From Bacilli bacterium (GTDB lineage Bacteria > Bacillota_I > Bacilli_A > ML615J-28 > CAG-313): a stretch of 64,000 nt of DNA. Position numbers and translations under genes: made by a program. The first letter of the stretch is position 1, and each line of letters starts with the position of its first letter. The DNA is taken from the NCBI GenBank assembly GCA_035362935.1, contig DAOSEC010000009.1, positions 9,501 to 73,500 of the forward strand, in the 5' to 3' direction. The notes under the pieces were generated by a model. That model was given only the letters and a program-made list of their open reading frames with translations. It ran no database searches and was not told the origin of the DNA. Below are positions 1 to 38,304 of the stretch, piece after piece.

Positions 1-2
1 TT

Positions 3-1112
3 ATGATTATTGGTTGTGTCAAAGAAATTAAAAAACATGAGTACCGTGTGGGTATGACTCCGGACAACGCAAAGGAGTATGCACATCATGGTCATACCGT
101 TCTAATTGAAACTGCAGCTGGACTAGGAGCAGGATTCTCAGATCAAGACTACATCAATAGTGGTGCAACAATTGTTTACACTGCGGAAGAAGTTTGGGAA
201 AAAGCAGACATGATTATTAAGGTAAAGGAGCCTTTAGCACCTGAATACGAATTAATGCGCGAAAACCAAATTATTTACACTTATCTTCACTTAGCGGCAG
301 ATGAAAAGTTAACACTTAAAATGATGGAAAAAAAGGTCAAAGGTGTTGCGTATGAAACCATCAAGGATCGTCACGGTAATTTACCATGTTTAAAACCGAT
401 GAGTGAAATTGCTGGAAAACTAAGTGTTCAAGAAGGTGCAAAATTCCTTGAAAAACCATTTGGTGGATCAGGAGTATTACTAGGAGGTGTTCCAGGAACA
501 CCTAAAGCAAATGTAACCATCATCGGTGGTGGTGTTGTAGGAACAAGCGCATGTAAGATTGCTGTTGGTATGGGAGCAAATGTTACCATTATTGATTTAA
601 ACTTAGATCGATTAACATACCTAGATGATATTTTTGGTGATCGTATCCAAACATTATTTAGCACTCAAGCTAACATCGAAAAAGCAGTATTAAGTGCAGA
701 TTTGGTTGTAGGAGCAGTATTAATTCCAGGAGCAGCTGCACCAAAATTATTAAAGCGTGAGTATTTAGCAAAAATGAAACCAGGTAGCGTTATCGTAGAC
801 GTTGCAATCGATCAAGGTGGATGCAGTGAATTTGCTAAGTTAACATACCACGATGAACCAGTGTTTATGCTAGATGGTGTTGTTAACTATTGCGTTGGAA
901 ATATGCCTGGTGCTGTTCCAAGAACATCTACCATTGCATTAACAAACTCAACATTACGATATGGTTTGATGATTGCAGATATGGGACTAGAACAAGCAGC
1001 AAAACGAAGTGTTGATATATTAGAAGGAATCAATACCTATGATGGAAAATGTACTTACAAAGCAGTTGCAGAAACGTTTGGACTTGAGTACACACCATAT
1101 GTTGCAAAATAA
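3..1112 (+). CDS. ald: L-alanine dehydrogenase
   Basis: N-terminus MIIGCVKEIKKHEYRVGMTP, an NAD-binding GxGxxG region (IIGGGVVGT) and ~370 aa length match Ald; the full ORF lies within the window. Confidence 0.9.
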   Translation: MIIGCVKEIKKHEYRVGMTPDNAKEYAHHGHTVLIETAAGLGAGFSDQDYINSGATIVYTAEEVWEKADMIIKVKEPLAPEYELMRENQIIYTYLHLAADEKLTLKMMEKKVKGVAYETIKDRHGNLPCLKPMSEIAGKLSVQEGAKFLEKPFGGSGVLLGGVPGTPKANVTIIGGGVVGTSACKIAVGMGANVTIIDLNLDRLTYLDDIFGDRIQTLFSTQANIEKAVLSADLVVGAVLIPGAAAPKLLKREYLAKMKPGSVIVDVAIDQGGCSEFAKLTYHDEPVFMLDGVVNYCVGNMPGAVPRTSTIALTNSTLRYGLMIADMGLEQAAKRSVDILEGINTYDGKCTYKAVAETFGLEYTPYVAK

Positions 1113-1133
1113 TTAATTAAAAGGAGAATTACT

Positions 1134-1472
1134 ATGTTTTGTTCAAGTTGTGGATCAGAAATAAGCGATAAGGCAGTTGTTTGTGTGCATTGTGGAAAAG
1201 ATGTTACACCAAAGTCACATGCAGAAACCAATGCAAACTCAAAATCCAAGATGGTTGCAGGTCTTTTAGCCATTTTTGTAGGTCCGCTCGGAATTCATAA
1301 TTTCTATTTAGGGTATACAACCAATGGAATTATTCAACTACTATTATCTACCGTTGGAGCATTTCTTGTTGTTGGTCCTTTTGTTGCGTGGATTTGGGCA
1401 ATTGTAGAAGCAGTACAAATTTTTACAGGAAAAATTGACAAGGACGCACAAGGAAACTTATTGAAAGATTAA
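1134..1472 (+). CDS. zinc-ribbon / TM2-domain membrane protein
   Basis: N-terminal CxxC...CxxC (CSSCGSE...CVHCGK) followed by two hydrophobic helices typical of the TM2 domain; RBS aaaggag 8 nt upstream. Confidence 0.65.
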   Translation: MFCSSCGSEISDKAVVCVHCGKDVTPKSHAETNANSKSKMVAGLLAIFVGPLGIHNFYLGYTTNGIIQLLLSTVGAFLVVGPFVAWIWAIVEAVQIFTGKIDKDAQGNLLKD

Positions 1473-1488
1473 GTTATATATCAAATTT

Positions 1489-1515
1489 ACGACTTCTTCG
1501 GAAGTCGTTTTTTGT
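1489..1515 (+). terminator. rho-independent terminator
   Basis: hairpin acgacttc-ttcg-gaagtcgt followed by a T-run. Confidence 0.7.
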
Positions 1516-1594
1516 TTTAAACTAGCGTGTAAAAAAATTGACAAACAAGTTAATATATAATAAAATAAACATAACCAATATAAGGAGGATCTTT

Positions 1595-1915
1595 ATGGTA
1601 AAAGAAATTAATCAAAAAGAGTTAAAGGATGAAGTTACAAATAGTGATAAAATCGTCTTAGTTGATTTTTATGCCGATTGGTGTATGCCATGTAAAATGA
1701 TGGCCCCAGTGCTAGAAAAACTTTCGAATGACTTTAGTAGCGAAATTGCGGTACTTAAAATCAACACAGATCACAACGAACAAGCATCACGTGCATTTGA
1801 AATCTTTAGCATTCCGACATTAGTTATATTTAAAGATGGTAAAATGGCTACAAGATTAGTGGGATTTAACTCCGCTGATAAGATTATGGATACCGTAAGA
1901 AAACTTAAAAAATAA
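1595..1915 (+). CDS. trxA: thioredoxin
   Basis: WCMPCK active site (variant of WCGPCK) and ~106 aa; start chosen at ATG 1595 after RBS aaggagga; the longer 1538 start lacks an RBS. Confidence 0.85.
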   Translation: MVKEINQKELKDEVTNSDKIVLVDFYADWCMPCKMMAPVLEKLSNDFSSEIAVLKINTDHNEQASRAFEIFSIPTLVIFKDGKMATRLVGFNSADKIMDTVRKLKK

Positions 1916-2010
1916 GATTTACACCACGCGAAATTGCTATCAAATTAGGGATTATGAACGAGTTCATTGTTCCAAATTTTGTCATTTCGTATGGTGTTTC
2001 CTTCCGTTGA

Positions 2011-2034
2011 TTCAACCAATCATCATTGGTTGAA
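2011..2034. promoter_or_regulatory. perfect 10-bp inverted repeat TTCAACCAAT-N4-ATTGGTTGAA upstream of copZ
   Basis: seen directly in sequence; no T-run after it, so it is unlikely to be a terminator; candidate operator. Confidence 0.3.
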
Positions 2035-2067
2035 ACCTAGTAAATCACCAAAAAGGGGAATATATGT

Positions 2068-2274
2068 ATGAAAACAGAGATAAAGATACAAGGAATGTCG
2101 TGTATGCATTGTGTAAAACGAGTTAAGAACGCTATTGCACAACTTGATGGAGTTACATTTGTTGATGTTTTATTAGATGAAGCAAAGGCTATGGTTGAAT
2201 TCGAAGAATCAAAAGTAACAACAACATTACTAGAAGAAACAATTGTAAAGACTGGTTATACACCAGTTAAGTAA
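2068..2274 (+). CDS. copZ: copper chaperone CopZ (heavy-metal-associated domain)
   Basis: GMSCMHCVKRV MxCxxC HMA motif, 68 aa. Confidence 0.85.
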   Translation: MKTEIKIQGMSCMHCVKRVKNAIAQLDGVTFVDVLLDEAKAMVEFEESKVTTTLLEETIVKTGYTPVK

Positions 2275-2285
2275 ACATAAATAAA

Positions 2286-2312
2286 AACGATGTGAGTTAC
2301 ACGTCGTTTTTT
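2286..2312 (+). terminator. rho-independent terminator
   Basis: acgatgtg-agtt-cacgtcgt hairpin plus a T7 run. Confidence 0.7.
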
Positions 2313-2355
2313 TGTTTTAATTGTGAGATTTTTCTAGTATAATATTTATAAAGAG

Positions 2356-4362
2356 GTGACTCAGATGGAACGACTGATGCATAAATTATATTTTTTTACA
2401 AATCAATCAGACTCTCAATCATTGGTATCAAACATTATTTTTATGAAACACAAAGAGTACACGATTTTGTTTTACCCGAGTGCTTTGGTTGGTGATTGTG
2501 AGTTACTAAAACAATATTTAGCAGAGATTTCATCATCGACAATTGACTATATGGTCATTACATCGCTTGAAGGTATTGGATTTGGTTTCTATAAACAAAT
2601 CACCCAACTTGGTATGCATCCAATCGTAGTCACAGATGATAAAATAGCAAATCATTTGATGTCGTACTTGCCAGTTGATCAATTATATATCATTCAAGAA
2701 CATCAGTTTTTAATCGAGATTGGCGAAGATTTGGTCTTGCAATGTGTTCCAACTCCGTTTTTGCATGAAGCTGGTTCATTTATGATCTATGACCCGACAT
2801 CATTATCTTTAATTTCCGGCAGTCTATTTAGTAGTTTCTCCAAAACAGAAAATGGTAAGGAACCAATTGAAAAATGGACTTCCTTTCATCAAATGTATTT
2901 TCCAGGAAGCGAGTATCTAAAACCGGTATTACAAAAGTGTCAATCACTCAACATCAATACGATTCTACCACAGTTTGGGGAACGCATTGAATCAAGACTG
3001 GTCAAATCAGTTGTGGATACATTGTATATGCTTGACTTTTATAATAACAATCAAATCGGTTTCAAGATTACACCAAGTGGAAGACAATTTAATTATCAAA
3101 CATTTTCGAATCAAATCCTTAGAAGATGGAAAGAAGTATTTGGAACCAACGACGTTTTAGATACTTATCGACAAAGTGAAATTCAAATTGACGATAAAAG
3201 TATTGAAATCATAACTACCTCCTTAAAAGACTTTCAGCTTTGGCACCGGTTGTTTGAGATAGCATATGAAAAAAAAGGCATTTCATGGTTATCCGTTGTT
3301 GAACCAATTGTAAAAAAATTAAATTCCATCTATCAACTAGAATATCCAGTGATTTATCAATCTGTTATCGTCACAGCACAACAAAAAATGATAGTTCTTG
3401 ATGAAGAAAAAGGAGAATTGGCTAAAAAACTAAGTACATTAGAAGAAAATTTATTGTCTACACTAGACCGCATGGGTCGTTGCCCAATAACAAACGAGTA
3501 CAATGAGTCCTTCTTCAAACAATATTTACAAAAAACTCTTGACCTGTCAGATCAAACAAATAAGATTGTCTTGTTTATCGATATTGATCAAATTAAAGAG
3601 ATCAATACAAACTATTCAAAAGAAGCAGGAGATGAAACATTAAAAAATGTTGCCTATGTGATCAACCAGAGTAAATCCAGTGAACACTTGCTATTTAAAC
3701 GCAATGGACCAGGTTTTATCGTATTCATTACTGATACATCGATGGATCAAGCGATAAAAACAGCAGAACGGTTCCGTAATAAAATTGTTGATTCACGTTT
3801 ATTTATTAAACCAATTACAATCAGTATTGCTATGGTTCGTGTTGGGGAACTTGAACCATTAGACAGTGACAATGAGCGGTTAATTGATTTGATTTTTAAG
3901 AAAGCTGAGTATCGATTAAAACAAGCCGCATCCAAAGGTGGGAACCAAATCATAAATGAACAAAGTAGTGATATCGTGGTTTCGGCTGGAAAGATATTGC
4001 TAATTGACCCAGAAGATGTTGTTTTTTTGATGTTAAAACAAGCACTCAGAAAAGAAAATTATGAGACAATTTGGGCTCAGGATGGTGCCTTGGCATTAGA
4101 AGCTCTAGTTCAAAATAAAATTGATTTTATCATATGTGAACGTATGATCCGCAAAATTGATGCATTTTCATTAAAACAACAGATTAATGAGACCATGGAA
4201 CTGAGTAATATACCATTCATGATGATTACATACCACAAAAGCAAGGAATTGATGATCAGAGCAAACCAACTAAACATCGATTATATTGTGACAAAACCAC
4301 TCATTGTTGAAGAGGTGATTGGATATATAAGACGTGAACTAGTAGGACGTGTGAACATATGA
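2356..4362 (+). CDS. degenerate GGDEF-domain protein with C-terminal pseudo-receiver (putative c-di-GMP effector/regulator)
   Basis: GGDEF-fold signature LFIDIDQIKEINTNYSKEAGDETLKNVAYVI...KRNGPGFIVFI...AIKTAERFRNKI, with the GGDEF motif replaced by NGPGF (nt ~3700-3717); C-terminal REC-like fold (ILLIDPED...FIICERMI...VTKPL) with the phospho-Asp replaced by Glu; stop overlaps the start of the downstream GT2 gene (ATGA). Confidence 0.7.
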   Translation: MTQMERLMHKLYFFTNQSDSQSLVSNIIFMKHKEYTILFYPSALVGDCELLKQYLAEISSSTIDYMVITSLEGIGFGFYKQITQLGMHPIVVTDDKIANHLMSYLPVDQLYIIQEHQFLIEIGEDLVLQCVPTPFLHEAGSFMIYDPTSLSLISGSLFSSFSKTENGKEPIEKWTSFHQMYFPGSEYLKPVLQKCQSLNINTILPQFGERIESRLVKSVVDTLYMLDFYNNNQIGFKITPSGRQFNYQTFSNQILRRWKEVFGTNDVLDTYRQSEIQIDDKSIEIITTSLKDFQLWHRLFEIAYEKKGISWLSVVEPIVKKLNSIYQLEYPVIYQSVIVTAQQKMIVLDEEKGELAKKLSTLEENLLSTLDRMGRCPITNEYNESFFKQYLQKTLDLSDQTNKIVLFIDIDQIKEINTNYSKEAGDETLKNVAYVINQSKSSEHLLFKRNGPGFIVFITDTSMDQAIKTAERFRNKIVDSRLFIKPITISIAMVRVGELEPLDSDNERLIDLIFKKAEYRLKQAASKGGNQIINEQSSDIVVSAGKILLIDPEDVVFLMLKQALRKENYETIWAQDGALALEALVQNKIDFIICERMIRKIDAFSLKQQINETMELSNIPFMMITYHKSKELMIRANQLNIDYIVTKPLIVEEVIGYIRRELVGRVNI

Positions 4363-7250
4363 GTTTGTCGATAGAAGTAGTATCGAATGTTTTATTGTCT
4401 TTGATTATTGTCACTGGAATTTTGATCTGTTTGATTTTCGCGAATAAATTCATTCTTAAGTACAATAAGATAGCATTTTTGTATACGAAACAATATTTGG
4501 TATATCGCTATTTTGAACAAGATGAAATACAAACAAAATGTTCGAAAAAGCATCTGTTACTAGCATTTGTTTCTTTAGTAGAACAAATAGATTTAGATGA
4601 TGCGATAAAACAAAGAATGATAGAGGATTTGCATAAAAGAGGAATTTTCAAAAAATACTATAGTGAAGTATCTTCAATTTTTGTACGCAAGCGAAAACGA
4701 GCTATTTTTTATTTATCGTATACCATGAACAAAAATATTGTGAAGCAATTGATGGATCGACTAAGTTGTGAAAAAAATGAGTCAGTGAAACTCTATATTG
4801 CGTATGCATGTAAACATCACCTTGACGAGCCATTTGTACGTAAACTTATGGAAACACTTCCAAATGCATCAAAACTTTACCGATTACGTATTTCTAATTT
4901 AGTCAATCAATATTTAGATGCAAATAACTATTTTATTACAACACTTGTAGATACGCCACATCTTGAGGTAAAAGAATGCTTAGTAAGGTATGCGATGAAT
5001 CACAAGCATCAAGTATTAAACCAATTTTTAAGGGATGAGCTAAATCGAGTAGAACACTATATATCTAAAGTCAAAGGATTTGAAGATTACATCAATGAAG
5101 ATGTGATAGATATTGTTGAGTATCAAACCAGTATCATTAAAACTCTATTTGTGATTTACGAAGACAGAACAATCATAGAAGCATATAAAAAAAGTTCAAA
5201 CGAATCCATTCAACATGTCATAATTGATTACTATGCTAAACAAGAAACCATAGAAGGCATGAAACAAATATTGCTATCTGCGAATGGATCTATTGTAGAC
5301 GATTATCGAAAAGAAGTAGTGACTTCATTGACCGATCTCAATCCTGATTTGTTCATAGAGTTAATTGAGCTTTTTCACACAACTAAAGAAGACAATGTTA
5401 GAGTTTTAATTGCATCAATATTGGCGTTTCGTAGTGATTATTTGATTTTGAAGCTAACTACAAAAAAGAAACAACTGTATTTGAAAACAATAAAGTCAAT
5501 TGTAGAGTATGGATTTGTGGCAGAAATAATTCGTTTTCTAAATCAAAATAAAAATAAGTTCATCGAAGAAGAGTTACTCAATACAATACAACCAGTGCTA
5601 CTTGTCAATGAAGCACTGCAACTTGAGTTTAGACAGTATCTCGATCAGCATATACTAGAAAAAATTGGATTCACAAAGAAAGACATTAAAACACTAAGTC
5701 CAAATATTACAAAATTAGAGCGTCGCAAGATTCGATGGCTAACAAGAATACTGATTGTATCAATTGTCTTTTTCCCTATAATTTATGTGTTAAGATACTA
5801 TAACTCATTGTTTTCCACCAACATAACCTTGCTCCTCATTAGGTATGTGGTTGATATCAATTACTATTTGGTATTTTATTATATTATTGTAAACTTGATT
5901 TACTTCATTTTAATTATATTATCATTAAAAGGGTCAAGACAACAAAGTTTTGATTGGAACATGAAATCAAAAACAATGATGTTTGAACGAGGAATGTTAT
6001 CTTCGATTTCAATTATTGCTCCTGCATACAATGAAGAGTTATCAATTGTAGATAGCATCAACTCACTTTTAAATTTACATTATCCAAACTATGAAGTCAT
6101 CGTTGTAAACGATGGATCAAAAGATGGTACCATGTCACAATTGGTATCGGCGTTTGAGTTGGAACGAAAAAATATTACAATCCACTCAAAAATACCAACC
6201 AAACATATCCGTGGAGTATATAAAAACAAACACATTCCAAACCTAACTGTGATTGATAAAGAAAATGGTGGAAAAGCAGATGCACTCAACGTAGGAATCA
6301 ATATGGCAAGATATGACTACATCTGTGGAATTGATGCCGATTCCATGCTTGAGTCTGAATCATTGTTAAGATTAATGAGTGTTACAATAGATGCGAAGGA
6401 AAAAATCATTGCGTTGGGAGGAAATATTTATCCGGCAAATGGTTGTAAAATCGACCGAGGAGTTGTTGAAGAAAAGGGACTGCCATCTAATATGTTAGCA
6501 AGACTACAGTCGATTGAATATTTACGAGCATTTACATCTGGTAGAATTGGTTGGGCAAAATTGAAAACACTGCTCATTGTATCGGGAGCATTTGGATTGT
6601 TTGAAAAAACAATGTTGATTGAGGCAGGAGGTTACTTAACAGTTAGCGGTGTTTTTAAAAAACACACGGTTGGCGAAGATATGGAGTTAGTGGTGCGATT
6701 AGCACGGACAGCACTTGAGAAAAAAATGAATCATAGGATTGATTATGTGTACCACGCGAACTGTTTTACAGAGGTGCCTACAGACATGAAAAGTTTATTG
6801 AAACAGAGAAATCGATGGCATCGTGGACTAATTGATATCTTATCGTATCACCGAAAGTTAATTTTTCATCCCTCTTACAAGCAAGTTGGGATGATTGGCT
6901 TGCCATACTTTACCATCTTTGAAATGATTGGACCATTATTTGAAGTACAAGGATACTTGATGTTATTTCTTGCATTGGCCTTTGGTCTATTAAACGTTCC
7001 TATCTTGCTTGCCATCTTTACTTCAACAATCATGTTAGGAATTGTGATATCACTTCTTTCCTTATGGGTGACAGAACGTGATTCCCAATATTTGGGTATA
7101 AAAGATACGTTGTTACTCGTTATTTATGCGATACTTGAAAATCTTGGATATCGACAACTAATCAGCTTGTATCGTGTAGTTGGTTTTTTTGCTTCCTTAA
7201 GAGAGACCGGTACTTGGGGAGCAATGGTGCGAAAAGGATTTAAAAAATAG
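4359..7250 (+). CDS. family-2 processive beta-glycosyltransferase (PgaC/IcaA/cellulose-synthase-like) with ~470-aa N-terminal TM + helical-repeat extension
   Basis: GT2 motifs VVNDGSKDG, GIDADSM (DxD) and QRNRWHRG (QxxRW); N-terminal TM, central TM block and C-terminal TMs; 963 aa. Confidence 0.8.
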   Translation: MSLSIEVVSNVLLSLIIVTGILICLIFANKFILKYNKIAFLYTKQYLVYRYFEQDEIQTKCSKKHLLLAFVSLVEQIDLDDAIKQRMIEDLHKRGIFKKYYSEVSSIFVRKRKRAIFYLSYTMNKNIVKQLMDRLSCEKNESVKLYIAYACKHHLDEPFVRKLMETLPNASKLYRLRISNLVNQYLDANNYFITTLVDTPHLEVKECLVRYAMNHKHQVLNQFLRDELNRVEHYISKVKGFEDYINEDVIDIVEYQTSIIKTLFVIYEDRTIIEAYKKSSNESIQHVIIDYYAKQETIEGMKQILLSANGSIVDDYRKEVVTSLTDLNPDLFIELIELFHTTKEDNVRVLIASILAFRSDYLILKLTTKKKQLYLKTIKSIVEYGFVAEIIRFLNQNKNKFIEEELLNTIQPVLLVNEALQLEFRQYLDQHILEKIGFTKKDIKTLSPNITKLERRKIRWLTRILIVSIVFFPIIYVLRYYNSLFSTNITLLLIRYVVDINYYLVFYYIIVNLIYFILIILSLKGSRQQSFDWNMKSKTMMFERGMLSSISIIAPAYNEELSIVDSINSLLNLHYPNYEVIVVNDGSKDGTMSQLVSAFELERKNITIHSKIPTKHIRGVYKNKHIPNLTVIDKENGGKADALNVGINMARYDYICGIDADSMLESESLLRLMSVTIDAKEKIIALGGNIYPANGCKIDRGVVEEKGLPSNMLARLQSIEYLRAFTSGRIGWAKLKTLLIVSGAFGLFEKTMLIEAGGYLTVSGVFKKHTVGEDMELVVRLARTALEKKMNHRIDYVYHANCFTEVPTDMKSLLKQRNRWHRGLIDILSYHRKLIFHPSYKQVGMIGLPYFTIFEMIGPLFEVQGYLMLFLALAFGLLNVPILLAIFTSTIMLGIVISLLSLWVTERDSQYLGIKDTLLLVIYAILENLGYRQLISLYRVVGFFASLRETGTWGAMVRKGFKK

Positions 7251-7272
7251 ACCCCTCTAGGTCTATTTTTTC
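7243..7272. terminator. bidirectional rho-independent terminator
   Basis: aaaaaatagacc-cctc-taggtctatttttt lies between convergent genes. Confidence 0.7.
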
Positions 7273-8000
7273 TTTGGTATGAATAGTTCAAATACAGCAT
7301 TCGAATAGTATTTTTTGACAGCATCAAGTTCATCTTGAGAACGAACCGTCCAAGCAATGATAATGACTCCACGTTTTTGCAAGTTGGTTAGTCTTCGCAT
7401 CGGTAGTAATGTGTGTTCATAATTAATGAAGTGAGGTTTTACAATGGGATATAAAACAATATGTTTGATTAATTGCTTATTGATCCAAGGTTCTTTGGAA
7501 TCTTTCATATCATAGGCTACGAGTCCTCTTTTGATGGTTGGTGCATGTTTCGTAAACCAATGGATAATAAATGGATTAAAGGACTGAACTGCATAATCTC
7601 CATCATAACCATTTAATACATCTAGTAAAACAGTGCATATCTCATCAATTCGTTTTGTGTTTTTGATTTCAATGAGAAGTGGGACTGCACCGGCTATTTC
7701 AGATAATACATCTTTAAGCAAAGGGATAGTTTGATTGCTTCCAAGCAGTGGATACTCTTTGATTTCATCGTATGTAGAAGTTTCGACCTCTAAAGGAACT
7801 CCACATAATCTTGTCAATGTAGAATCATGAAATACGACGATTTGTGAATCTTTAGTTATGTGAATGTCGAATTCCATTGCATAACCACGCTCTTTTGCTA
7901 ATTGAAAAGCTTTCATGGAATTTTCTGGGACAACTTCGTTGTCGGTGTGAAGACCTCTATGAGCGATGTCGTATGTTTTCATCCATTCCAATGAAATCAC
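7263..8000 (-). CDS. glycerophosphodiester phosphodiesterase
   Basis: GDPD motifs HRGLHTDNEVVPENSMKAF...EFDIHITKDSQIVVFHD; GTG start. Confidence 0.85.
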   Translation of the reverse strand: MISLEWMKTYDIAHRGLHTDNEVVPENSMKAFQLAKERGYAMEFDIHITKDSQIVVFHDSTLTRLCGVPLEVETSTYDEIKEYPLLGSNQTIPLLKDVLSEIAGAVPLLIEIKNTKRIDEICTVLLDVLNGYDGDYAVQSFNPFIIHWFTKHAPTIKRGLVAYDMKDSKEPWINKQLIKHIVLYPIVKPHFINYEHTLLPMRRLTNLQKRGVIIIAWTVRSQDELDAVKKYYSNAVFELFIPKKK

Positions 8001-8037
8001 CTCTTTCTAAATGTATTCTACCTTAATTTAAATGGTT

Positions 8038-8075
8038 TGTAAATACTACGTTTTACTTATGTAAATACTGCGTTT
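8038..8075. repeat. tandem direct repeat TGTAAATACTRCGTTT x2 (22-bp period) in the GDPD/MFS divergent intergenic region
   Basis: seen directly; sits immediately upstream of the MFS -35 element. Confidence 0.4.
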
Positions 8076-8085
8076 CATTTACTCG

Positions 8086-8113
8086 TTGACAAATACAAGG
8101 GTTTTCGTATAAT
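8086..8113 (+). promoter_or_regulatory. sigma-A type promoter (TTGACA-16-TATAAT)
   Basis: consensus hexamers about 30 nt upstream of the MFS RBS. Confidence 0.55.
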
Positions 8114-8145
8114 AGAGTTATAATATACGCAAGGAGTGTGGCATT

Positions 8146-9561
8146 TTGAAACTAGATTCGAAAAAAATATTGTTTGTTGGCTTAGCATTTTTCTTAATCT
8201 CTATCTTTTGGCAAGTGTATGACATTACCATTCCGAAAATACTAATGTATAAATTTGGGTTAAATCACAGCGTATCTGGTGTGATTATGGCTGTTGATAA
8301 TATTTTGGCATTAACGCTATTACCACTCTTTGGAGCATTATCTGACCGAAGTCGTCATAAACTAGGGCGCAGAACCCCATTTGTAATTATTGGTACAATC
8401 GCTGCTGTCATTGCATTTATGGGATTAACATTTTCTGATAATTATCAACTTCAATTGATTGAAGAAGCTGGTATTGTTGAATATGTTGATGGATTAGAAG
8501 CGGTACTTCCAGCAGGTCAAGTATTGACTGAGGCACAACTTATTGAAGTACGTGCGAGAGCCTGGGATGTCACAGTGAACAACCCAATGAATATCGTTGT
8601 ATTTTCTGGTCTTTTACTCATTGTTCTAATCGCGATGTCAACGTTCCGCTCACCAGCGGTTGCGTTAATGCCTGATGTGACGGTGAAACCACTTAGATCA
8701 AAGGCCAATGCAATCATTAACTTAATGGGTGGAGCGAGTGGAGCTATTGCACTTGTATTGATGATGGTTTATAAAACCGATGCAACCCGGTTTAATCATA
8801 ACATGATGCTATTCTTTACGATTGCCGCTATTATGTTAATATCACTCGGTGTCTTTTTATGGAAAGTAAAAGAACCAATCTTAGTAAAGCAAATGGAAGA
8901 AGACAAAATCAAATATGGCATTGTCGATGAAATGGAAGAAGTCAAAGAAGAAAAGTTACCAAAAGCACAACTTACTTCCTTAATTTTAATTCTATCATCT
9001 ATTTTCTTGTGGTTTATGGGTTATAATGCCGTTACATCTAAATTTTCAGTTTATGCAAAAGACATTCTTAATATGGGGGCAACCTTACCACTGATGATAG
9101 CTAATATTGCTGCTATTCTTACTTACATACCAGCAGGTATGGTAGCAAGTAAGATCGGGCGAAAAAACACGATTATGATTGGTGTTGTTATGATGGTAGT
9201 ATCGTTTGGTTCTGCATATTTCTTAACACCAACATCCAATTACTTAATGTATGTTGTACTACTATTAGCAGGTATGGGTTGGGCTTCGATTAATGTTAAC
9301 TCTTACCCAATGATAGCAGAACTTTCAAAAGGATCAAACGTCGGAAAATACACTGGATATTATTATACATTCTCAATGAGTGCACAAGCGATAACCCCTG
9401 TTATTTCTGGGGTATTGATGGATGTAATCGATCCTAGAATTTTGTTTCCATACGGAGCGTTCTTTATTTTCTTAGCATTCTTTACTATGATTATGGTAAA
9501 ACATGGAAATGCAAAACCAATTCCACAAAAGGCTGTCGAATACTTAGGGACAGATGACTAA
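8146..9561 (+). CDS. MFS transporter
   Basis: 12 predicted TM helices, MFS loop motif GALSDRSRHKLGRRTP, TTG start with RBS aaggag. Confidence 0.8.
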   Translation: MKLDSKKILFVGLAFFLISIFWQVYDITIPKILMYKFGLNHSVSGVIMAVDNILALTLLPLFGALSDRSRHKLGRRTPFVIIGTIAAVIAFMGLTFSDNYQLQLIEEAGIVEYVDGLEAVLPAGQVLTEAQLIEVRARAWDVTVNNPMNIVVFSGLLLIVLIAMSTFRSPAVALMPDVTVKPLRSKANAIINLMGGASGAIALVLMMVYKTDATRFNHNMMLFFTIAAIMLISLGVFLWKVKEPILVKQMEEDKIKYGIVDEMEEVKEEKLPKAQLTSLILILSSIFLWFMGYNAVTSKFSVYAKDILNMGATLPLMIANIAAILTYIPAGMVASKIGRKNTIMIGVVMMVVSFGSAYFLTPTSNYLMYVVLLLAGMGWASINVNSYPMIAELSKGSNVGKYTGYYYTFSMSAQAITPVISGVLMDVIDPRILFPYGAFFIFLAFFTMIMVKHGNAKPIPQKAVEYLGTDD

Positions 9562-9573
9562 TTATAACTATGT

Positions 9574-9606
9574 AGGCTGAAACCATTTGGTTTCAGCCTT
9601 TTTTAA
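9574..9606 (+). terminator. rho-independent terminator
   Basis: aggctgaaacc-atttg-gtttcagcct plus a T-run. Confidence 0.75.
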
Positions 9607-9621
9607 TAAAGCGATTTCATT

Positions 9622-9673
9622 ATTCTAGAATTCGTTGAAAAAATCTGTAAACTATGTTATAATATTCTAGAAA
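9622..9673 (+). promoter_or_regulatory. pfp promoter (TTGAAA-17-TATAAT) bracketed by two ATTCTAGAA palindromes
   Basis: 10-bp palindrome ATTCTAGAAT at 9622-9631 and ATTCTAGAAA at 9664-9673, flanking the -35 and -10 elements. Confidence 0.4.
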
Positions 9674-9710
9674 AATTTGATATAAATAGAATGGTAAAGG
9701 AGTCCAAACA

Positions 9711-10961
9711 ATGAGTAAAGTATTAAAAGGCGCATGTATTATTGGTCAATCTGGAGGACCAACATCTGTCATCAATACAAGTTTATTAGGAGCTGTGAAA
9801 GCTGCACTTGCATCTAGTTCCATTACGAAAGTACTAGGAGCATTAAATGGAATTGAAGGAGTTTTAAAAGATGAGTTAATCGTTTTCGATGAAGAAGATG
9901 ATAATGAATTAGAACTATTAAGACAAACCCCATCTTCAGTACTAGGAAGTTGTCGCTACAAATTAAAAGACTATAAAGTGGATGATACTGATTATCGTCG
10001 TATTTTAGAAATCTTTAAAAAGTATGATGTTCGTTATTTCTTCTACAATGGTGGAAATGATTCCATGGACACATGTAATAAGATTTCTAAATTCATGTTA
10101 GAAAATAATTATGAATGTCGCGTTATGGGTATTCCAAAAACAATCGACAATGATTTGGCTGGTACCGATCACTGTCCTGGATATGGTTCAGCAGCAAAAT
10201 ACATCGCACAAATTTGTACTGAACTTGCGTTAGATGCACGTGTGTATCCAAATGGACCCGTTGTTATTTTAGAAGTTATGGGAAGAAATGCTGGTTGGAT
10301 GGCTGCATCAAGTGCACTTGCTGGAATTCATGGCGTAGGACCAGACCTAATTTACTTACCAGAAAATCCATTTGATTTAGAAGATTTCATTGAACGCGTC
10401 AAAACCATTTATGCGAAAAAGAAAACAGCAGTTGTTGTTGTTTCCGAAGGAATCAAGGACAAAGATGGAGTTTACATTTCAGAATATGGAAGTGATTTAG
10501 CAAAACAAAAAGATTCATTCGGTCATGCACAAATGGGTGGGCTAGCTGCTTACTTAGGTAGTGCCTTCAAACGTGCAACCGGATTAAAGGTTCGTCCAAT
10601 CGAACTATCATTGTTACAACGTTGTGCTTCACATTCCATTTCAAAAGCGGATAGCGATGAAGCATACATGGCTGGATATGAAGCAGTTCGATACGCAGTA
10701 GCGGGTGGGACAGATAAAATGGCTGGCTATAAAGTGGTTCGTGAAAAAGATTACTATCGTTGTTCAATTGAATTTGTTCCACTAGAACAAGTTGGTGGGG
10801 TTGAAGTTCATTTCCCAACAAAATGGATGAACGAGGATAAAACAGGCGTTACCGAAGAATTTATTCAATATGCTCTTCCTTTGATTCAAGGTGAACTTGA
10901 TTATGTCAAAGAAGATGGTATGAACAAATTTGCTAAATTAAGATTTAAGCGTAGTAAATAA
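9711..10961 (+). CDS. pfp: pyrophosphate-dependent 6-phosphofructokinase
   Basis: PFK fold; GGNDS (Asp in place of the ATP-PFK GGDGS Gly) and PKTIDND (Lys in place of Gly) are the residues that specify PPi use; 416 aa, typical of long PPi-PFKs. Confidence 0.8.
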   Translation: MSKVLKGACIIGQSGGPTSVINTSLLGAVKAALASSSITKVLGALNGIEGVLKDELIVFDEEDDNELELLRQTPSSVLGSCRYKLKDYKVDDTDYRRILEIFKKYDVRYFFYNGGNDSMDTCNKISKFMLENNYECRVMGIPKTIDNDLAGTDHCPGYGSAAKYIAQICTELALDARVYPNGPVVILEVMGRNAGWMAASSALAGIHGVGPDLIYLPENPFDLEDFIERVKTIYAKKKTAVVVVSEGIKDKDGVYISEYGSDLAKQKDSFGHAQMGGLAAYLGSAFKRATGLKVRPIELSLLQRCASHSISKADSDEAYMAGYEAVRYAVAGGTDKMAGYKVVREKDYYRCSIEFVPLEQVGGVEVHFPTKWMNEDKTGVTEEFIQYALPLIQGELDYVKEDGMNKFAKLRFKRSK

Positions 10962-36879: not shown

Positions 36880-38304
36880 ATGAAATTAAACGATCTAAAG
36901 AAAAAGTTAAAAGCAGAAGTAGAAACCTATGTTCCAGATATCATCAATAAAGTCAAACCATCATCACACGATTTGCCAAGTTACAAAGACCACTTAGAAA
37001 TCATCGAAGCTCCAAAGAAACAGACGCCATTTTGGACAAAACGCTTTGCGTTGCAACTTACAAGTTTGGTGTTGATGGTAGTTCTATCGGTTTCCATAAT
37101 CATAGGATCGTTATCACCACAAGAAGCAGTGATGTCCAAAGAAGAGTTTGAAGAAGCAATGACGGAACTTGTCAATGTGGAAGTAAATCTTTGGGATTAT
37201 TTACCAACCGTTTTAAGTCCACAAGAAAGCGGAATGCCAACAAGTTATATGGCTATGTCAGTTTTAAGTCCAATCGGTCGACCAGCTTCAGTTGGCAGAC
37301 CAGAGATGAACGAAAACGAACGTCTTGCGAGTAGACAGTTAGCCAACATTCAAAACCTAATTCAAGCGATTGACATTGAAATGAAACGCATCAATGAGTT
37401 TAATGATAGTAGGTTATCGGTATTAGACAAGGCAAAATCCGAATTTAACCGAAAAAATGGAAAAGCTCAACTATCGTTTGATGTAAATAACCGTCGAGTT
37501 GAAGTGTTAATTGAATCCAAAAATAAAGTAAATCTAAAAGCAACATTACCTGTTGCTACCTATGAGCTTCAATTAGAACAAACCAATCATATCCAAAAAT
37601 TTAAAGGATCAATAGTCTATCAAAACGGACAACAAATCACCTTTGAACTAAGTGAAGAAGAACAAGTGATATCATATGTTGGATTAGAACAAGCAAAACG
37701 ATTGCGTTTTACCAACGTGGATAATATGATAATTGGTGAATTCTTAGAATTTGTAGTGTTGAATGGAAGTTCACAGTTAACAAACAAAGCAATGATCCAA
37801 GTCGATTCAAACCACACATATGTAATCACAGACTATCCACTATTAGAAGAACAAACAGAAGCAGATGTCTATGAGATTGAAGTATACGACAATGAAACAG
37901 GTGATTTTATTCTATCGAAAATCGTACTTGGAGATTTGGAAGTATATCGTTTTGATTTTGATGCATTATCTGGATTTGATACAGTTACGTATCATCAAAT
38001 TGGAGCAGGAGTGAATGCAAGAAAAGAATTTCGTGTTGATGGAGTTCGATTTGAAGACACCAATCAATATGCGATTGTTCATCGTGCATTAGCGATTCGT
38101 ACTGTAGGAAATTCACGATTTGGTGTGACACGATATGTTTTAATTCCATACTTGCTTGTTGAAAAATCCTATTTCGATGTAAATGGACTTCCATCACCAT
38201 TTGTAAATGGTGAAGTTGATATCTATGATATCATAATAAAACTTGAACAATTAGATGTAAAATATCAGATATTTATGAGTGAAGAATCTAGTTTTGAAAG
38301 TTGA
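36880..38304 (+). CDS. putative anti-sigma factor (single-pass membrane protein with large extracytoplasmic domain)
   Basis: 17 nt downstream of the sigma gene; ~60-aa cytoplasmic N-terminus, one TM (LVLMVVLSVSIIIGSL), ~390-aa ectodomain. Confidence 0.55.
   Translation: MKLNDLKKKLKAEVETYVPDIINKVKPSSHDLPSYKDHLEIIEAPKKQTPFWTKRFALQLTSLVLMVVLSVSIIIGSLSPQEAVMSKEEFEEAMTELVNVEVNLWDYLPTVLSPQESGMPTSYMAMSVLSPIGRPASVGRPEMNENERLASRQLANIQNLIQAIDIEMKRINEFNDSRLSVLDKAKSEFNRKNGKAQLSFDVNNRRVEVLIESKNKVNLKATLPVATYELQLEQTNHIQKFKGSIVYQNGQQITFELSEEEQVISYVGLEQAKRLRFTNVDNMIIGEFLEFVVLNGSSQLTNKAMIQVDSNHTYVITDYPLLEEQTEADVYEIEVYDNETGDFILSKIVLGDLEVYRFDFDALSGFDTVTYHQIGAGVNARKEFRVDGVRFEDTNQYAIVHRALAIRTVGNSRFGVTRYVLIPYLLVEKSYFDVNGLPSPFVNGEVDIYDIIIKLEQLDVKYQIFMSEESSFES

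What the first reader, a model, noticed from the sequence alone, without database searches (positions are those of the whole stretch)
2356..7250. Translationally coupled degenerate-GGDEF/pseudo-receiver protein and giant GT2 processive synthase: candidate c-di-GMP-gated exopolysaccharide module of unusual architecture
The first gene has an authentic GGDEF fold (LFIDIDQIKEIN...GDETL...KRNGPGFIVFI...AERFRNKI) whose catalytic GG(D/E)EF is replaced by NGPGF. It also has a C-terminal receiver-like domain in which the phospho-acceptor Asp is Glu. Both features are typical of non-enzymatic c-di-GMP receptor or adaptor proteins. Its stop overlaps (ATGA) the start of a 963-aa GT2 enzyme. That enzyme carries DxD and QxxRW processive-synthase motifs (PgaC/IcaA/BcsA/HasA class) and an unusual ~470-aa N-terminal TM plus HEAT-like helical extension. 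From established knowledge, degenerate GGDEF receptors activate EPS synthases in Listeria (PssE with PssC) and B. subtilis (YdaK with YdaM). Here only two genes are present, with no BcsB-like, deacetylase or export partner, and the extra domains sit on both proteins. That suggests a compact, differently wired polysaccharide synthase.
Basis: partly seen in the sequence, partly recalled or inferred. Interest (0 to 1): 0.6.

Follow-up and report, generated by a model that had tools for sequence, protein, structure and literature searches.

The report
Dead-sensor regulator coupled to polysaccharide synthase
A two-gene operon pairs a membrane sugar-polymer synthase carrying a large helical docking domain with a soluble regulator whose three signalling domains have all lost their catalytic or ligand-binding residues; the pairing recurs in at least 67 genomes and has not been described in the papers I could search.

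Summary
The sequence observation is confirmed. Gene 1 (2365-4362; the ATG at 2365 is the likelier start) has a GGDEF fold with NGPGF in place of GG(D/E)EF, and a receiver domain whose acceptor Asp is Glu. Its stop overlaps (ATGA) the start of a 963-aa GT2 with DAD, GED and QRNRW motifs and TM helices after QRNRW.

Two corrections:
- The first 237 residues are an ODP-family (oxygen-binding di-iron) domain. It keeps only 2 of the 6 scored di-iron ligand positions.
- The RxxD I-site used by PelD, BcsE and, from memory, PssE/YdaK is absent (SSEH).

The pair is not a one-off. It lies adjacent in 67 of 67 informative loci from Mollicutes-like Bacilli, Clostridia and Spirochaetota, with an ATGA junction in 43. 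The GGDEF signature is degenerate in 69/69 partners, RxxD is absent in 68/69, and the acceptor is Glu in 66/71. ODP ligands are intact in Clostridia and many spirochaetes.

Diderm relatives encode a true Asp receiver, a TPR/YaiO porin, a separate HEAT protein and the GT2.

Best reading: a synthase-dependent exopolysaccharide module in which the dead GGDEF-REC pair regulates the synthase through its HEAT domain. Gating by c-di-GMP is possible but unsupported.

The parts
2283..2311 (+). Intrinsic-terminator-like hairpin ending the upstream CopZ-like gene; marks the 5' boundary of the module
   Evidence: 12-bp stem followed by a T run; sequence read.
2350..2367 (+). Ribosome-binding site AAAGAGGTGA and the likely true start codon ATG at 2365. 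The GTG at 2356 given in the finding lies inside the RBS.
   Evidence: Sequence. Public gene calls give 665 aa.
2365..4362 (+). Gene 1: 665-aa soluble regulator with the architecture ODP*-helical linker-coiled coil-GGDEF*-REC*
2365..3075 (+). ODP-family (oxygen-binding di-iron protein, metallo-beta-lactamase fold) domain, aa 1-237. The di-iron ligand motifs are degenerate: HQDPD becomes SLEGI, FLH is kept, SGD becomes SGS, and PQHG becomes PQFG.
   Evidence: PF19583, 70.6 bits. Family profile against PDB 6qrq and 6qnm. Motif table. Coordinates.
3085..3456 (+). Conserved helical linker (aa 241-325) and long predicted helix or coiled-coil stalk (aa about 327-364) before the GGDEF domain
   Evidence: Secondary structure from AF2, low confidence. 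Conserved columns such as W..R.F...KG..WL.VVEP.V.KL.
3487..3954 (+). Degenerate GGDEF domain, aa 375-530. The signature is NGPGF (nt 3703-3717). SSEH occupies the I-site position (nt 3676-3687). Equivalents of Asp327, Asn335 and Asp344 are kept (FIDID, EIN, AGDET).
   Evidence: PF00990, 60.4 bits; TIGR00254, 66.7 bits. KRNGPGF is invariant among the 4 closest homologues. Family table.
3994..4344 (+). Pseudo-receiver domain, aa 544-660. The acceptor is Glu592 (IICER, nt 4129-4143). Thr622 and Lys644 are kept.
   Evidence: PF00072, 51.8 bits. Alignments. Acceptor is Glu in 66 of 71 family members.
4359..4362 (+). ATGA overlap of the gene 1 stop and the gene 2 start (translational coupling)
   Evidence: The same 4-nt overlap occurs in 43 of 67 related loci, and 62 of 67 junctions lie within -11 to +5 nt.
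4359..7250 (+). Gene 2: 963-aa HEAT-like-GT2 membrane synthase
4380..4442 (+). TM1 (aa 8-28), which anchors the N-terminal extension
   Evidence: Hydropathy. AF2 helix 2-51.
4461..5723 (+). Cytoplasmic alpha-solenoid (HEAT-like) domain, aa 35-455, proposed as the docking platform for gene 1's product
   Evidence: AF2 gives about 24 helices at pLDDT 80-93. The profile finds 334 representative proteins, with the domain N-terminal in every one of the 150 listed hits. Relatives hit HEAT_2 above cut-off. The cytoplasmic side is inferred from the positive-inside rule and the position of the GT domain.
5736..5933 (+). TM2 (aa 460-480) and TM3 (aa 503-525)
   Evidence: Hydropathy. AF2 helices 452-479 and 489-535.
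5991..6863 (+). GT-A fold family-2 glycosyltransferase domain, aa 545-835. Motifs: NDGSKD (nt 6102-6125), GIDADS (6327-6344), VGEDM (6669-6683), QRNRW (6804-6818).
6930..7193 (+). C-terminal TM helices after QRNRW (aa 858-880, 885-905, about 914-945); putative glycan channel
7242..7271 (.). Bidirectional terminator-like hairpin shared with the convergent GDPD gene; marks the 3' boundary of the module

Best explanation
This is a minimal, monoderm form of a widespread but undescribed synthase-dependent exopolysaccharide system.

Gene 2 is a membrane-embedded, processive-type family-2 glycosyltransferase. It would polymerise a sugar from a nucleotide-sugar on the cytoplasmic face and thread the chain through its own TM channel. 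It carries a roughly 420-residue cytoplasmic HEAT-like solenoid between TM1 and TM2.

Gene 1 is made in step with it through ATGA coupling. It is a soluble, probably dimeric regulatory subunit with no enzymatic activity of its own. Its GGDEF*-REC* pair, with Glu in place of the phospho-Asp (possibly acting as a built-in phosphomimetic), is the output module. That module would contact the HEAT domain and so set synthase activity or assembly.

The N-terminal domain is the input. In Clostridia and many spirochaetes it is an intact di-iron ODP sensor, expected from the characterised ODP to respond to O2 and Fe(II). In this window's lineage (Acholeplasmatales-like Bacilli) the iron ligands are gone. 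Here the regulator would act as a constitutive or differently gated activator. A guanine nucleotide at the remnant GGDEF half-site is one possible gate, since the base-recognition Asn and Asp are kept.

Shown: domain identities, motif states, synteny, coupling and fusions.
Inferred: the REC*/HEAT contact, the direction of regulation, the ligand and the polymer. The polymer may contain GlcNAc.
For: Domain and motif assignments.

Processive-synthase character:
- D, DxD, ED and QxxRW are invariant.
- TM helices follow QRNRW.

Obligate partnership:
- The partner gene abuts the N-extended GT2 on the same strand in all 67 loci where both genes could be scored, across Bacillota and Spirochaetota.
- The junction is an ATGA overlap in 43 of 67 loci, and 62 of 67 lie within -11 to +5 nt.

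Not a decaying gene:
- KRNGPGF, AGDET and the acceptor Glu are invariant among homologues down to 31% identity.
- The Gly at position 2 of the five-residue signature (NGPGF) is kept in 57 of 69.

REC-HEAT-GT2 as the functional core:
- Diderm relatives encode a stand-alone true-Asp REC, a TPR+YaiO outer-membrane barrel, a separate HEAT_2 protein and the GT2, in one operon.
- A Myxococcota relative has Hpt-REC-GGDEF*-REC*(Glu), then a HEAT protein, then the GT2.
- Some relatives fuse a REC to the C-terminus of the HEAT-GT2.
- In every one of the 150 listed hits the N-extension sits at the protein's N-terminus, and the full-length ones (about 950 aa) match this GT2 architecture.

Export function: a TPR/beta-barrel porin in diderm operons; a membrane-anchored extracytoplasmic third protein in 31 loci, sometimes fused to the GT2; GH16-like and CE4 neighbours in spirochaetes.

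Loss of input: ODP ligands are 6/6 intact in 27 partners but lost in 22 of 24 Mollicutes-like/Bacilli members, this one included.
Against: - No experiment exists for any member.
- The REC*/HEAT contact rests only on co-occurrence, gene order and fusions. No complex model could be run.
- The AF2 model of gene 1 is poor (pLDDT 60), and the TM part of gene 2 is low-confidence.
- The Pfam HEAT models do not hit the window protein itself.
- Glu as a phosphomimetic is an analogy from other response regulators, not a test.
- The polymer is unknown. The best family match (PgaC/IcaA) is far below its cut-off (110 against 422 bits).
- Five Acholeplasmataceae loci carry a PAS-GGDEF gene with an intact GG(D/E)E signature directly downstream of the GT2. 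This keeps a c-di-GMP link alive.
Confidence: 0.5

Rival explanations
1. Gene 1 is a c-di-GMP receptor, like PelD, BcsE, PssE or YdaK, that activates the synthase when c-di-GMP rises.
For: - The GGDEF fold has a dead active site, as in known receptors.
- The precedent of degenerate GGDEF or REC*-GGDEF* regulators of GT2 or Pel synthases (BcsE and PelD: PMC7439463).
- A PAS-GGDEF gene with an intact GG(D/E)E signature lies immediately downstream of the GT2 in five Acholeplasmataceae/Mariniplasma loci.
- Asp327, Asn335 and Asp344 equivalents are kept in this clade, so a guanine nucleotide could still bind at the A-site.
Against: - The RxxD I-site that binds c-di-GMP in PelD and BcsE (PMC7439463) and, from memory, in PssE and YdaK is absent here (SSEH) and in 68 of 69 family members. 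That position is not conserved at all.
- No PilZ or MshEN domain was detected in either protein.
- No c-di-GMP riboswitch was found.
- No other GGDEF gene is in the 64-kb window.
- In Clostridia members the guanine-recognition residues are also lost (7 of 8), yet the module is conserved.
Confidence: 0.2
2. Gene 1 is a GTP (or other nucleotide) sensor. The remnant GGDEF half-site binds GTP without turnover and couples polymer synthesis to nucleotide or energy status. From memory, the degenerate GGDEF of Caulobacter PdeA works this way.
For: - The Mg/base-recognition positions (D in FIDID, N in EIN, D in AGDET) are kept in 23 of 26 Mollicutes-like/Bacilli members.
- Keeping these positions is inversely associated with an intact ODP site (odds ratio 0.18, Fisher p 0.003, not corrected for phylogeny). 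That pattern is what one would expect if one input replaced the other.
Against: - The acidic residues of the signature are replaced by Pro-Gly.
- By my reading of the alignment, the phosphate-binding Lys and Arg of the C-terminal helix (KxxGR) are altered (AASKGGN). This was not tested with a tool.
- The association is confounded by shared ancestry.
Confidence: 0.15
3. Gene 2 is not an exported-polymer synthase. It is instead a membrane GT2 that glycosylates a lipid carrier, glycolipid or teichoic-acid-like acceptor (the GtrB, ArnC, DPM or PcManGT type), and gene 1 is an unrelated neighbour.
Against: - QRNRW and the VGED motif are invariant.
- Two to three TM helices follow QRNRW.
- 361-382 residues align to hyaluronan synthases.
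- Diderm relatives sit in operons with a TPR/beta-barrel porin.
- Neighbours include GH16-like and CE4 genes and a large extracytoplasmic partner.
- The partner is adjacent in all 67 loci scored, with ATGA coupling in 43.
Confidence: 0.07

Closest known systems
E. coli-type cellulose secretion regulator BcsE with synthase BcsA (PMC7439463)
   Same: A soluble regulator built from catalytically dead signalling domains (REC* and GGDEF*, plus a degenerate N-terminal domain) serves a membrane GT2 synthase. The logic of repurposed signalling modules is the same.
   Different: - BcsE binds c-di-GMP at an RxxD I-site; that site is absent here.
- The domain order is NTD-REC*-GGDEF* in BcsE and ODP*-GGDEF*-REC* here.
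- BcsE acts through BcsF, BcsQ and BcsR, and BcsA has a PilZ domain. Here there is a HEAT domain on the synthase and no PilZ.
- There is no detectable sequence relationship beyond the domain families.
Degenerate-GGDEF c-di-GMP receptors of EPS synthases: PelD (Pseudomonas), PssE (Listeria, PMC4125290), YdaK (B. subtilis)
   Same: A degenerate GGDEF protein is encoded next to a polysaccharide synthase.
   Different: Those proteins are membrane-anchored and use an intact I-site. For PssE and YdaK this is from memory and from the discussions read. Gene 1 is soluble, lacks RxxD, and carries ODP and REC domains.
Oxygen-binding di-iron protein ODP of Treponema denticola (PDB 6qrq, 6qnm; Muok et al. 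2019, cited in PMC7319448 and PMC7666581)
   Same: Same Pfam family (PF19583) and the same fold over the whole domain. Relatives of gene 1 keep the HQDPD, (F/Y)LH, SGD and PQHG ligand motifs. Fusions of ODP to signal-transduction domains were noted by the original authors.
   Different: The characterised ODP is a single-domain chemotaxis sensor that works with an MCP. Here the domain is fused to GGDEF*-REC* and wired to a synthase. In this window only the His of FLH and an Asp-to-Glu change remain (2 of the 6 scored positions), so iron binding is unlikely.
PgaC/IcaA poly-beta-1,6-GlcNAc synthases (TIGR03937)
   Same: This is the best-scoring curated family for the GT2 domain. It shares the membrane GT2 with D, DxD, ED and Q(R)xRW motifs and flanking TM helices.
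   Different: The score is 110 bits against a cut-off of 422, so this is not an equivalog. The window has no PgaD/IcaD, no deacetylase and no PgaA. The extra 450-aa N-terminal TM plus HEAT-like domain is unique to this family.
Class I hyaluronan synthases (Chlorella virus HAS, Xenopus HAS1) and chitin synthases
   Different: Identity is 16-17%. Those enzymes have no HEAT domain and no coupled regulator.
Stand-alone membrane GT2 synthases of Mycoplasma (PMC11658790)
   Same: In Mollicutes, a single membrane-embedded GT2 synthase is held responsible for producing a homopolysaccharide. This fits the window having no export partner.
   Different: As far as I read, those synthases are not reported with a HEAT domain or a GGDEF/REC partner. 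Sequence relatedness was not tested.

Membership tests
GGDEF domain (PF00990 / TIGR00254) | Profile match above the curated cut-off | tested here: met
   PF00990 scores 60.4 bits against 23.8, and TIGR00254 scores 66.7 against 37.4. The family profile hits PleD structures at E 7.6e-33.
Active diguanylate cyclase | GG(D/E)EF signature with the catalytic acidic residues | tested here: not met
   The window has NGPGF. None of 69 family members has GG(D/E)EF.
I-site c-di-GMP receptors (PelD, BcsE, PssE, YdaK type) | RxxD motif five residues upstream of the signature | tested here: not met
   SSEH occupies that position. RxxD is absent in 68 of 69 members and the position is not conserved.
I-site c-di-GMP receptors (PelD, BcsE, PssE, YdaK type) | Measured c-di-GMP binding | not testable with these tools
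   Needs DRaCALA or ITC on purified protein.
Response-regulator receiver (PF00072) | Profile match above the cut-off, with the conserved Thr/Ser and Lys | tested here: met
   51.8 bits against 30.2. Thr622 and Lys644-Pro are kept.
Phosphorylatable receiver | Acceptor Asp at the end of beta-3 | tested here: not met
   Glu592 (IICER). The acceptor is Glu in 66 of 71 members.
ODP family (PF19583) | Profile match above the cut-off, covering the domain | tested here: met
   70.6 bits against 27.2. The family profile hits 6qrq_B at E 1.5e-27 over profile positions 15-248.
Functional di-iron ODP sensor | Ligand motifs HQDPD, (F/Y)LH, SGD and PQHG | tested here: not met
   The window has SLEGI, FLH, SGS and PQFG. 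The motifs are intact in 27 relatives, for example L033, L052 and L006.
Processive membrane GT2 synthases (BcsA, HAS, CHS, PgaC, NodC class) | D, DxD, (T/G)ED and Q(Q/R)xRW motifs | tested here: met
   D585, D659-A-D661, E773-D774 and Q816-R-N-R-W820 are all invariant in A1.
Processive membrane GT2 synthases (BcsA, HAS, CHS, PgaC, NodC class) | TM helices flanking the GT domain, including helices after QxxRW, and fold similarity to solved synthases | tested here: met
Processive membrane GT2 synthases (BcsA, HAS, CHS, PgaC, NodC class) | Demonstrated polymer product | not testable with these tools
   Needs expression and glycan analysis.
PgaC/IcaA equivalog (TIGR03937) | Score at or above the curated cut-off of 422.3 bits | tested here: not met
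   110.1 bits.
PilZ-gated synthase (BcsA or Alg44 type) | PilZ domain on the synthase or its partner | tested here: not met
   No PilZ hit in Pfam or NCBIfam at E up to 0.1. Only 15 residues follow the last predicted helix.
HEAT repeat proteins (PF13646 / PF02985) | Profile match, or an alpha-solenoid fold of paired helices | tested here: inconclusive
   There is no Pfam HEAT hit on the window protein. AF2 gives a confident all-alpha solenoid. Homologous N-extensions in P0034, P0065 and P0130 hit HEAT_2 above cut-off. No solenoid appears among the listed hits of either structure search, which are taken up by the GT domain.

The most novel reading that the evidence does not exclude
The module may represent a previously unrecognised family of synthase-dependent exopolysaccharide systems found in at least four phyla.

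Its core would be a REC-type regulator, a HEAT adaptor and a GT2 synthase. A fossil GGDEF-REC pair would have become a nucleotide-independent protein-protein output module.

In anaerobes (Clostridia, Spirochaetota) this would wire a di-iron O2/Fe(II) sensor directly to polymer secretion, giving oxygen-triggered matrix production without any second messenger. In the window's lineage even the sensor is dead, leaving a pure scaffold or activator.
Probability: 0.35. Interest if true: 0.75.

Novelty: new variant of a known kind. Interest (0 to 1): 0.6.

Why it matters
Synthase-dependent polysaccharide secretion (cellulose, PNAG, alginate, Pel) is the model for how bacteria build biofilm matrix. In the well-studied systems control runs through c-di-GMP, although exceptions exist: RiGT2 was c-di-GMP-independent in vitro.

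This family keeps the fold of c-di-GMP and two-component parts but has lost every residue that defines their chemistry: 69/69 dead GGDEF, 68/69 without an I-site, 66/71 with a Glu acceptor. It is nonetheless strictly conserved and translationally coupled to its synthase.

Three things follow:
- It offers a natural case of signalling domains turned into protein-protein adaptors.
- Members with an intact ODP give a directly testable link between oxygen or iron sensing and matrix production in strict anaerobes and spirochaetes. One cultured host was found (Parasporobacterium paucivorans DSM 15970).
- It points to three protein families with no characterised member: the synthase N-extension, component 3, and the regulator's helical linker.

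For this window specifically, the result is a clear annotation: a regulated EPS synthase pair in an Acholeplasmatales-like bacterium, with all three of the regulator's signalling domains degenerate.

Tried and rejected
- Word-indexed homologue searches returned only 6 full-length GT2 homologues and, among 10 hits, only 4 proteins with the regulator's architecture. Repeating the search with the profile A1 added nothing, so that search was wasted. The family size came from the genome scan and the exhaustive profile search.
- Rfam on 1-10000 at E up to 1 gave no hit. There is therefore no c-di-GMP riboswitch or other known leader.
- The promoter scan found no convincing sigma-70 site upstream. 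Only a TATAAT at 2338-2343 without a good -35 is visible by eye.
- The AF2 model of gene 1 from 4 sequences was poor (mean pLDDT 60), so I ran no further search on it.
- The afdb50 library was unavailable.
- Component 3 has no PDB or Pfam match by profile. There is one weak GH113 hit, E 0.0024, in one member. My reading of a clan GH-A TIM barrel from its motifs is unverified.
- The ODP paper (PMC6660769) is not held. ODP ligand motifs were therefore taken from alignments to PDB 6qrq and 6qnm.
- Cluster look-up gave no source names for the NCBI members.
- I considered and rejected the idea that gene 1 is a decaying pseudo-regulator. Its degenerate motifs are themselves invariant at 31% identity.
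- I considered an E. coli yaiO-yaiP analogy from memory but could not test it, and one literature search found nothing relevant.
Full report

Yes. The ORF listing gives 2356-4362 (+, 668 aa from GTG) and 4359-7250 (+, 963 aa). The sequence upstream reads AAAGAGGTGACTCAGATGG. The ATG at 2365 has a proper Shine-Dalgarno spacing, while the GTG at 2356 lies inside the RBS. Public gene calls on identical contigs also give 665 aa.

The junction is CATATGAGT, so the stop TGA overlaps the next ATG by 4 nt. A terminator-like hairpin (2283-2311) follows a small CopZ-like gene upstream. A bidirectional hairpin (7242-7271) follows gene 2. The pair therefore looks like a self-contained two-gene unit.

The identical GT2 protein occurs on 10 contigs from ENA, JGI and Logan assemblies with the same neighbours. 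These are real genes of a real organism.

**2. Gene 1**

Pfam finds three domains above their cut-offs:
- ODP (PF19583): 70.6 bits.
- GGDEF (PF00990): 60.4 bits.
- Response_reg (PF00072): 51.8 bits.

NCBIfam agrees.

A profile of the family hits the solved oxygen-binding di-iron proteins 6qrq (E 1.5e-27) and 6qnm (E 1e-21) over the whole N-terminal 240 residues, followed by flavodiiron proteins. Alignment to those structures gives the ligand motifs HQDPD, FLH, SGD and PQHG. The window protein has SLEGI, FLH, SGS and PQFG. Only 2 of the 6 scored ligand positions remain, so most of the di-iron site is gone.

The remaining features are:
- A conserved helical linker and a long helix precede the GGDEF domain.
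- The GGDEF signature is NGPGF.
- The I-site position holds SSEH rather than RxxD.
- The Asp, Asn and Asp that bind Mg and guanine in PleD-type cyclases are kept (FIDID, EIN, AGDET). This is my reading.
- The receiver has Glu592 where the phospho-Asp should be, and keeps the Thr and the Lys-Pro.

**3. Gene 2**

The gene hits Glycos_transf_2, Glyco_tranf_2_3 and Glyco_trans_2_3. The best curated family is PgaC/IcaA, at 110 bits against a cut-off of 422, so it is not an equivalog. D585, D659-x-D661, E773-D774 and Q816-R-N-R-W820 are invariant among homologues.

Hydropathy gives this layout:

| Segment | Residues |
|---|---|
| TM1 | 8-28 |
| soluble stretch | 35-455 |
| TM2 | 460-480 |
| TM3 | 503-525 |
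| GT domain | 545-835 |
| helices after QRNRW | 858-905 and about 914-945 |

From the positive-inside rule and the cytoplasmic GT domain, I infer that the 35-455 stretch is cytoplasmic.

AF2 with 6 sequences gives a confident all-alpha solenoid of about 24 helices for residues 60-440 (pLDDT 80-93). The GT core is moderate and the TM region weak.

**4. The pair is a conserved family**

A scan of one genome per GTDB species found at least 576 loci encoding relatives. Among the best 80, the full-length N-extended form occurs in these groups:
- Acholeplasmataceae, Izemoplasmatales and Mariniplasma.
- Unclassified Bacilli. These are the closest to the window, at 49-51% identity.
- Clostridia, including the cultured Parasporobacterium paucivorans DSM 15970.
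- Spirochaetota (Sphaerochaeta, Treponemataceae, Leptospira, Marispirochaeta).

In every locus where both genes could be scored (67 loci), the ODP-GGDEF-REC gene sits immediately upstream on the same strand. The junction is the same ATGA overlap in 43 of 67 loci, and 62 of 67 lie within -11 to +5 nt.

An exhaustive profile search with the N-extension alone found 334 representative proteins (E up to 1e-3) among 1.84 billion. In every one of the 150 listed hits the domain sits at the N-terminus. The full-length ones are about 950 aa, and the six longest that I scanned by Pfam all carry the GT2 domain. The extension therefore belongs to this synthase family.

**5. Motif states across the family**

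| Feature | Count |
|---|---|
| GGDEF signature degenerate | 69 of 69 |
| RxxD absent | 68 of 69 |
| REC acceptor Glu | 66 of 71 |
| ODP ligands 6/6 intact | 27 partners |
| ODP ligands lost, Mollicutes-like/Bacilli | 22 of 24 |

The degeneracy is conserved rather than random. KRNGPGF, AGDET and the Glu are invariant among homologues down to 31% identity.

The 27 partners with intact ODP ligands include all 8 Clostridia and 14 Spirochaetota. The window belongs to the group that has lost them.

Intact ODP and retention of the guanine-recognising Asn and Asp are inversely associated (11/15 against 28/7, odds ratio 0.18, Fisher p 0.003). This is not corrected for phylogeny, so it is only a hint that one input replaced another.

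**6. Distant relatives show the core logic**

Shorter GT2 homologues without the N-extension occur in Bacteroidota, Ignavibacteria and Myxococcota. They sit in operons with this gene order:
- a stand-alone receiver with a true Asp (LILLDVMLP);
- a TPR plus YaiO outer-membrane beta-barrel protein;
- a separate HEAT_2 protein of 375-410 aa;
- the GT2.

One of them (L090) also has a CHASE3 hybrid kinase and a REC-kinase upstream.

A Myxococcota locus has Hpt-REC-GGDEF*-REC*, again with a Glu acceptor (LLLES). A HEAT protein and the GT2 follow.

Other variants fuse a REC to the C-terminus of the HEAT-GT2. Three loci have only GGDEF*-REC* without ODP.

The conserved triad is therefore a REC-type regulator, a HEAT domain and the GT2. 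The GGDEF*-REC*(Glu) pair is an old output module with interchangeable inputs. The TPR/beta-barrel protein marks the system as a secretion machine in diderms.

**7. Accessory genes that the window lacks**

In 31 loci a 700-1230-aa protein with an N-terminal TM anchor and a large extracytoplasmic domain flanks the pair. It has no Pfam or PDB match. Two representatives are fused to the GT2. The 64-kb window has none.

Spirochaete loci add a convergent GH16-like lipoprotein in 12 loci; the Pfam hit is on the L006 member only. They also add a CE4 deacetylase in 8 loci. Together with weak Chitin_synth_2 hits, this hints at a GlcNAc-containing polymer. That remains conjecture.

For a Mollicutes-like host, the precedent of stand-alone GT2 synthases in mycoplasmas (PMC11658790) makes a two-gene system plausible.

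**8. Mechanism**

I commit to the following. Gene 2 is a processive synthase-translocase. Gene 1 is a non-enzymatic, probably dimeric regulatory subunit made in step with it. Its GGDEF*-REC* end contacts the cytoplasmic HEAT solenoid and sets synthase activity or assembly. The Glu acceptor may mimic the phosphorylated state that true-Asp receivers supply in the diderm versions. The N-terminal ODP domain is the input: a real di-iron sensor in Clostridia and spirochaetes, and a relic here.

For this window, that leaves either a constitutive activator or gating by a guanine nucleotide at the remnant half-site.

- Shown: domains, motifs, synteny, coupling and fusions.
- Inferred: the contact, the direction of control, the ligand and the polymer.
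- Confidence: about 0.5.

**9. Rivals**

The fold, the precedents and five Acholeplasmataceae loci with a PAS-GGDEF gene carrying an intact GG(D/E)E signature right after the GT2 argue for it. The missing I-site across the family, the absence of PilZ and the absence of a riboswitch argue against it.
- GTP sensor, about 0.15.
- Non-polymerising lipid GT, about 0.07.

**10. Comparison with known systems**

It works most like the BcsE/BcsA arrangement, in which a dead REC*-GGDEF* regulator serves a GT2 synthase (PMC7439463). It also resembles the PelD, PssE and YdaK arrangements. It fails their defining I-site test, has a different domain order, and uses a HEAT adaptor instead of PilZ or BcsF/BcsQ/BcsR.

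The ODP family is known as a chemotaxis O2/Fe(II) sensor, and fusions to signalling domains have been noted (PMC7319448; PMC7666581). I found no paper linking ODP, a dead GGDEF-REC pair and a HEAT-GT2 synthase. The library searched is incomplete.

**11. Verdict**

This is a new variant of a known kind of system, and it belongs to a sizeable family with no characterised member. It is worth experimental follow-up, preferably in an ODP-intact member alongside this one.

Noticed in passing
L006:1787-5008; L033:8946-11093; L046:8685-11969; L029:1634-3793, and about 27 other loci (absent from the window): A third conserved gene flanks the regulator-synthase pair. It encodes a 700-1230-aa protein with an N-terminal TM anchor and a large extracytoplasmic domain. 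Members are 30-57% identical across Clostridia, Spirochaetota and some Bacilli. It has no Pfam or PDB match. Conserved motifs (FFVKGVN, NTIRVY, VAEFG) look like a clan GH-A TIM barrel to my eye. Two representatives (P0034, P0123) are fused to the GT2.
   Followed up: partly
L012:8722-9627, L018:8709-9710, L020:8723-9628, L023:8784-9722, L025:8790-9710: In five Acholeplasmataceae/Mariniplasma loci, a Cys-rich PAS domain plus a GGDEF domain with an intact GG(D/E)E(M/L/I) signature is encoded directly after the synthase. This is a possible real diguanylate cyclase in the operon, and the main reason a c-di-GMP link cannot be dismissed.
   Followed up: partly
L085:3109-7398; L089:2865-7383; L090:965-8160; L088:2818-7389: Diderm relatives (Bacteroidota, Ignavibacteria, Myxococcota) have an operon of a true-Asp stand-alone receiver (or Hpt-REC-GGDEF*-REC*), a TPR+YaiO outer-membrane barrel, a separate HEAT-repeat protein and a short GT2. 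In L090 the GT2 has a SPOR domain, and a CHASE3 hybrid kinase lies upstream. This looks like an undescribed synthase-dependent secretion system.
   Followed up: partly
L006:9865-10596 (-); L062:8117-8905 (-); L058:9299-10273 (-), and other spirochaete loci: A GH16-like lipoprotein (12 loci; the Pfam hit is on the L006 member only) and a CE4 polysaccharide deacetylase (8 loci) are conserved, convergently oriented, just downstream of the synthase in spirochaetes. They are possible polymer-processing enzymes.
   Followed up: partly
P0065, P0130, P0097 (representative proteins): These variants of the synthase carry a receiver domain fused to the C-terminus (HEAT-GT2-REC). At least two have an Asp at the acceptor position by eye.
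   Followed up: partly
Partner genes of the 61 loci in which both the ODP motifs and the GGDEF base-recognition residues could be scored: An intact ODP iron site and retention of the GGDEF guanine-recognition Asn and Asp are inversely associated (odds ratio 0.18, Fisher p 0.003). The test is not corrected for phylogeny.
   Followed up: partly
window 2069-2275 (+): A 68-aa CopZ-like heavy-metal-associated protein (MSCMHC motif) with its own terminator lies directly upstream of the module. In the relative L009 the same position holds a CopA-type P-type ATPase plus CopZ, so the ATPase appears to have been lost here.
   Followed up: no
window 53812-58152 (+); 36880-38304 (+); 61524-62828 (+): Three sizeable ORFs (1446, 474 and 434 aa) gave no NCBIfam match at E 1e-10, while their neighbours are ordinary housekeeping genes (glycine cleavage, EF-G, RNase J).
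   Followed up: no
window 7263-8000 (-): A glycerophosphodiester phosphodiesterase (GDPD) gene converges on the synthase and shares its terminator. This neighbour is kept in the 54%-identical relative L009. Whether it is functionally linked is unknown.
   Followed up: no
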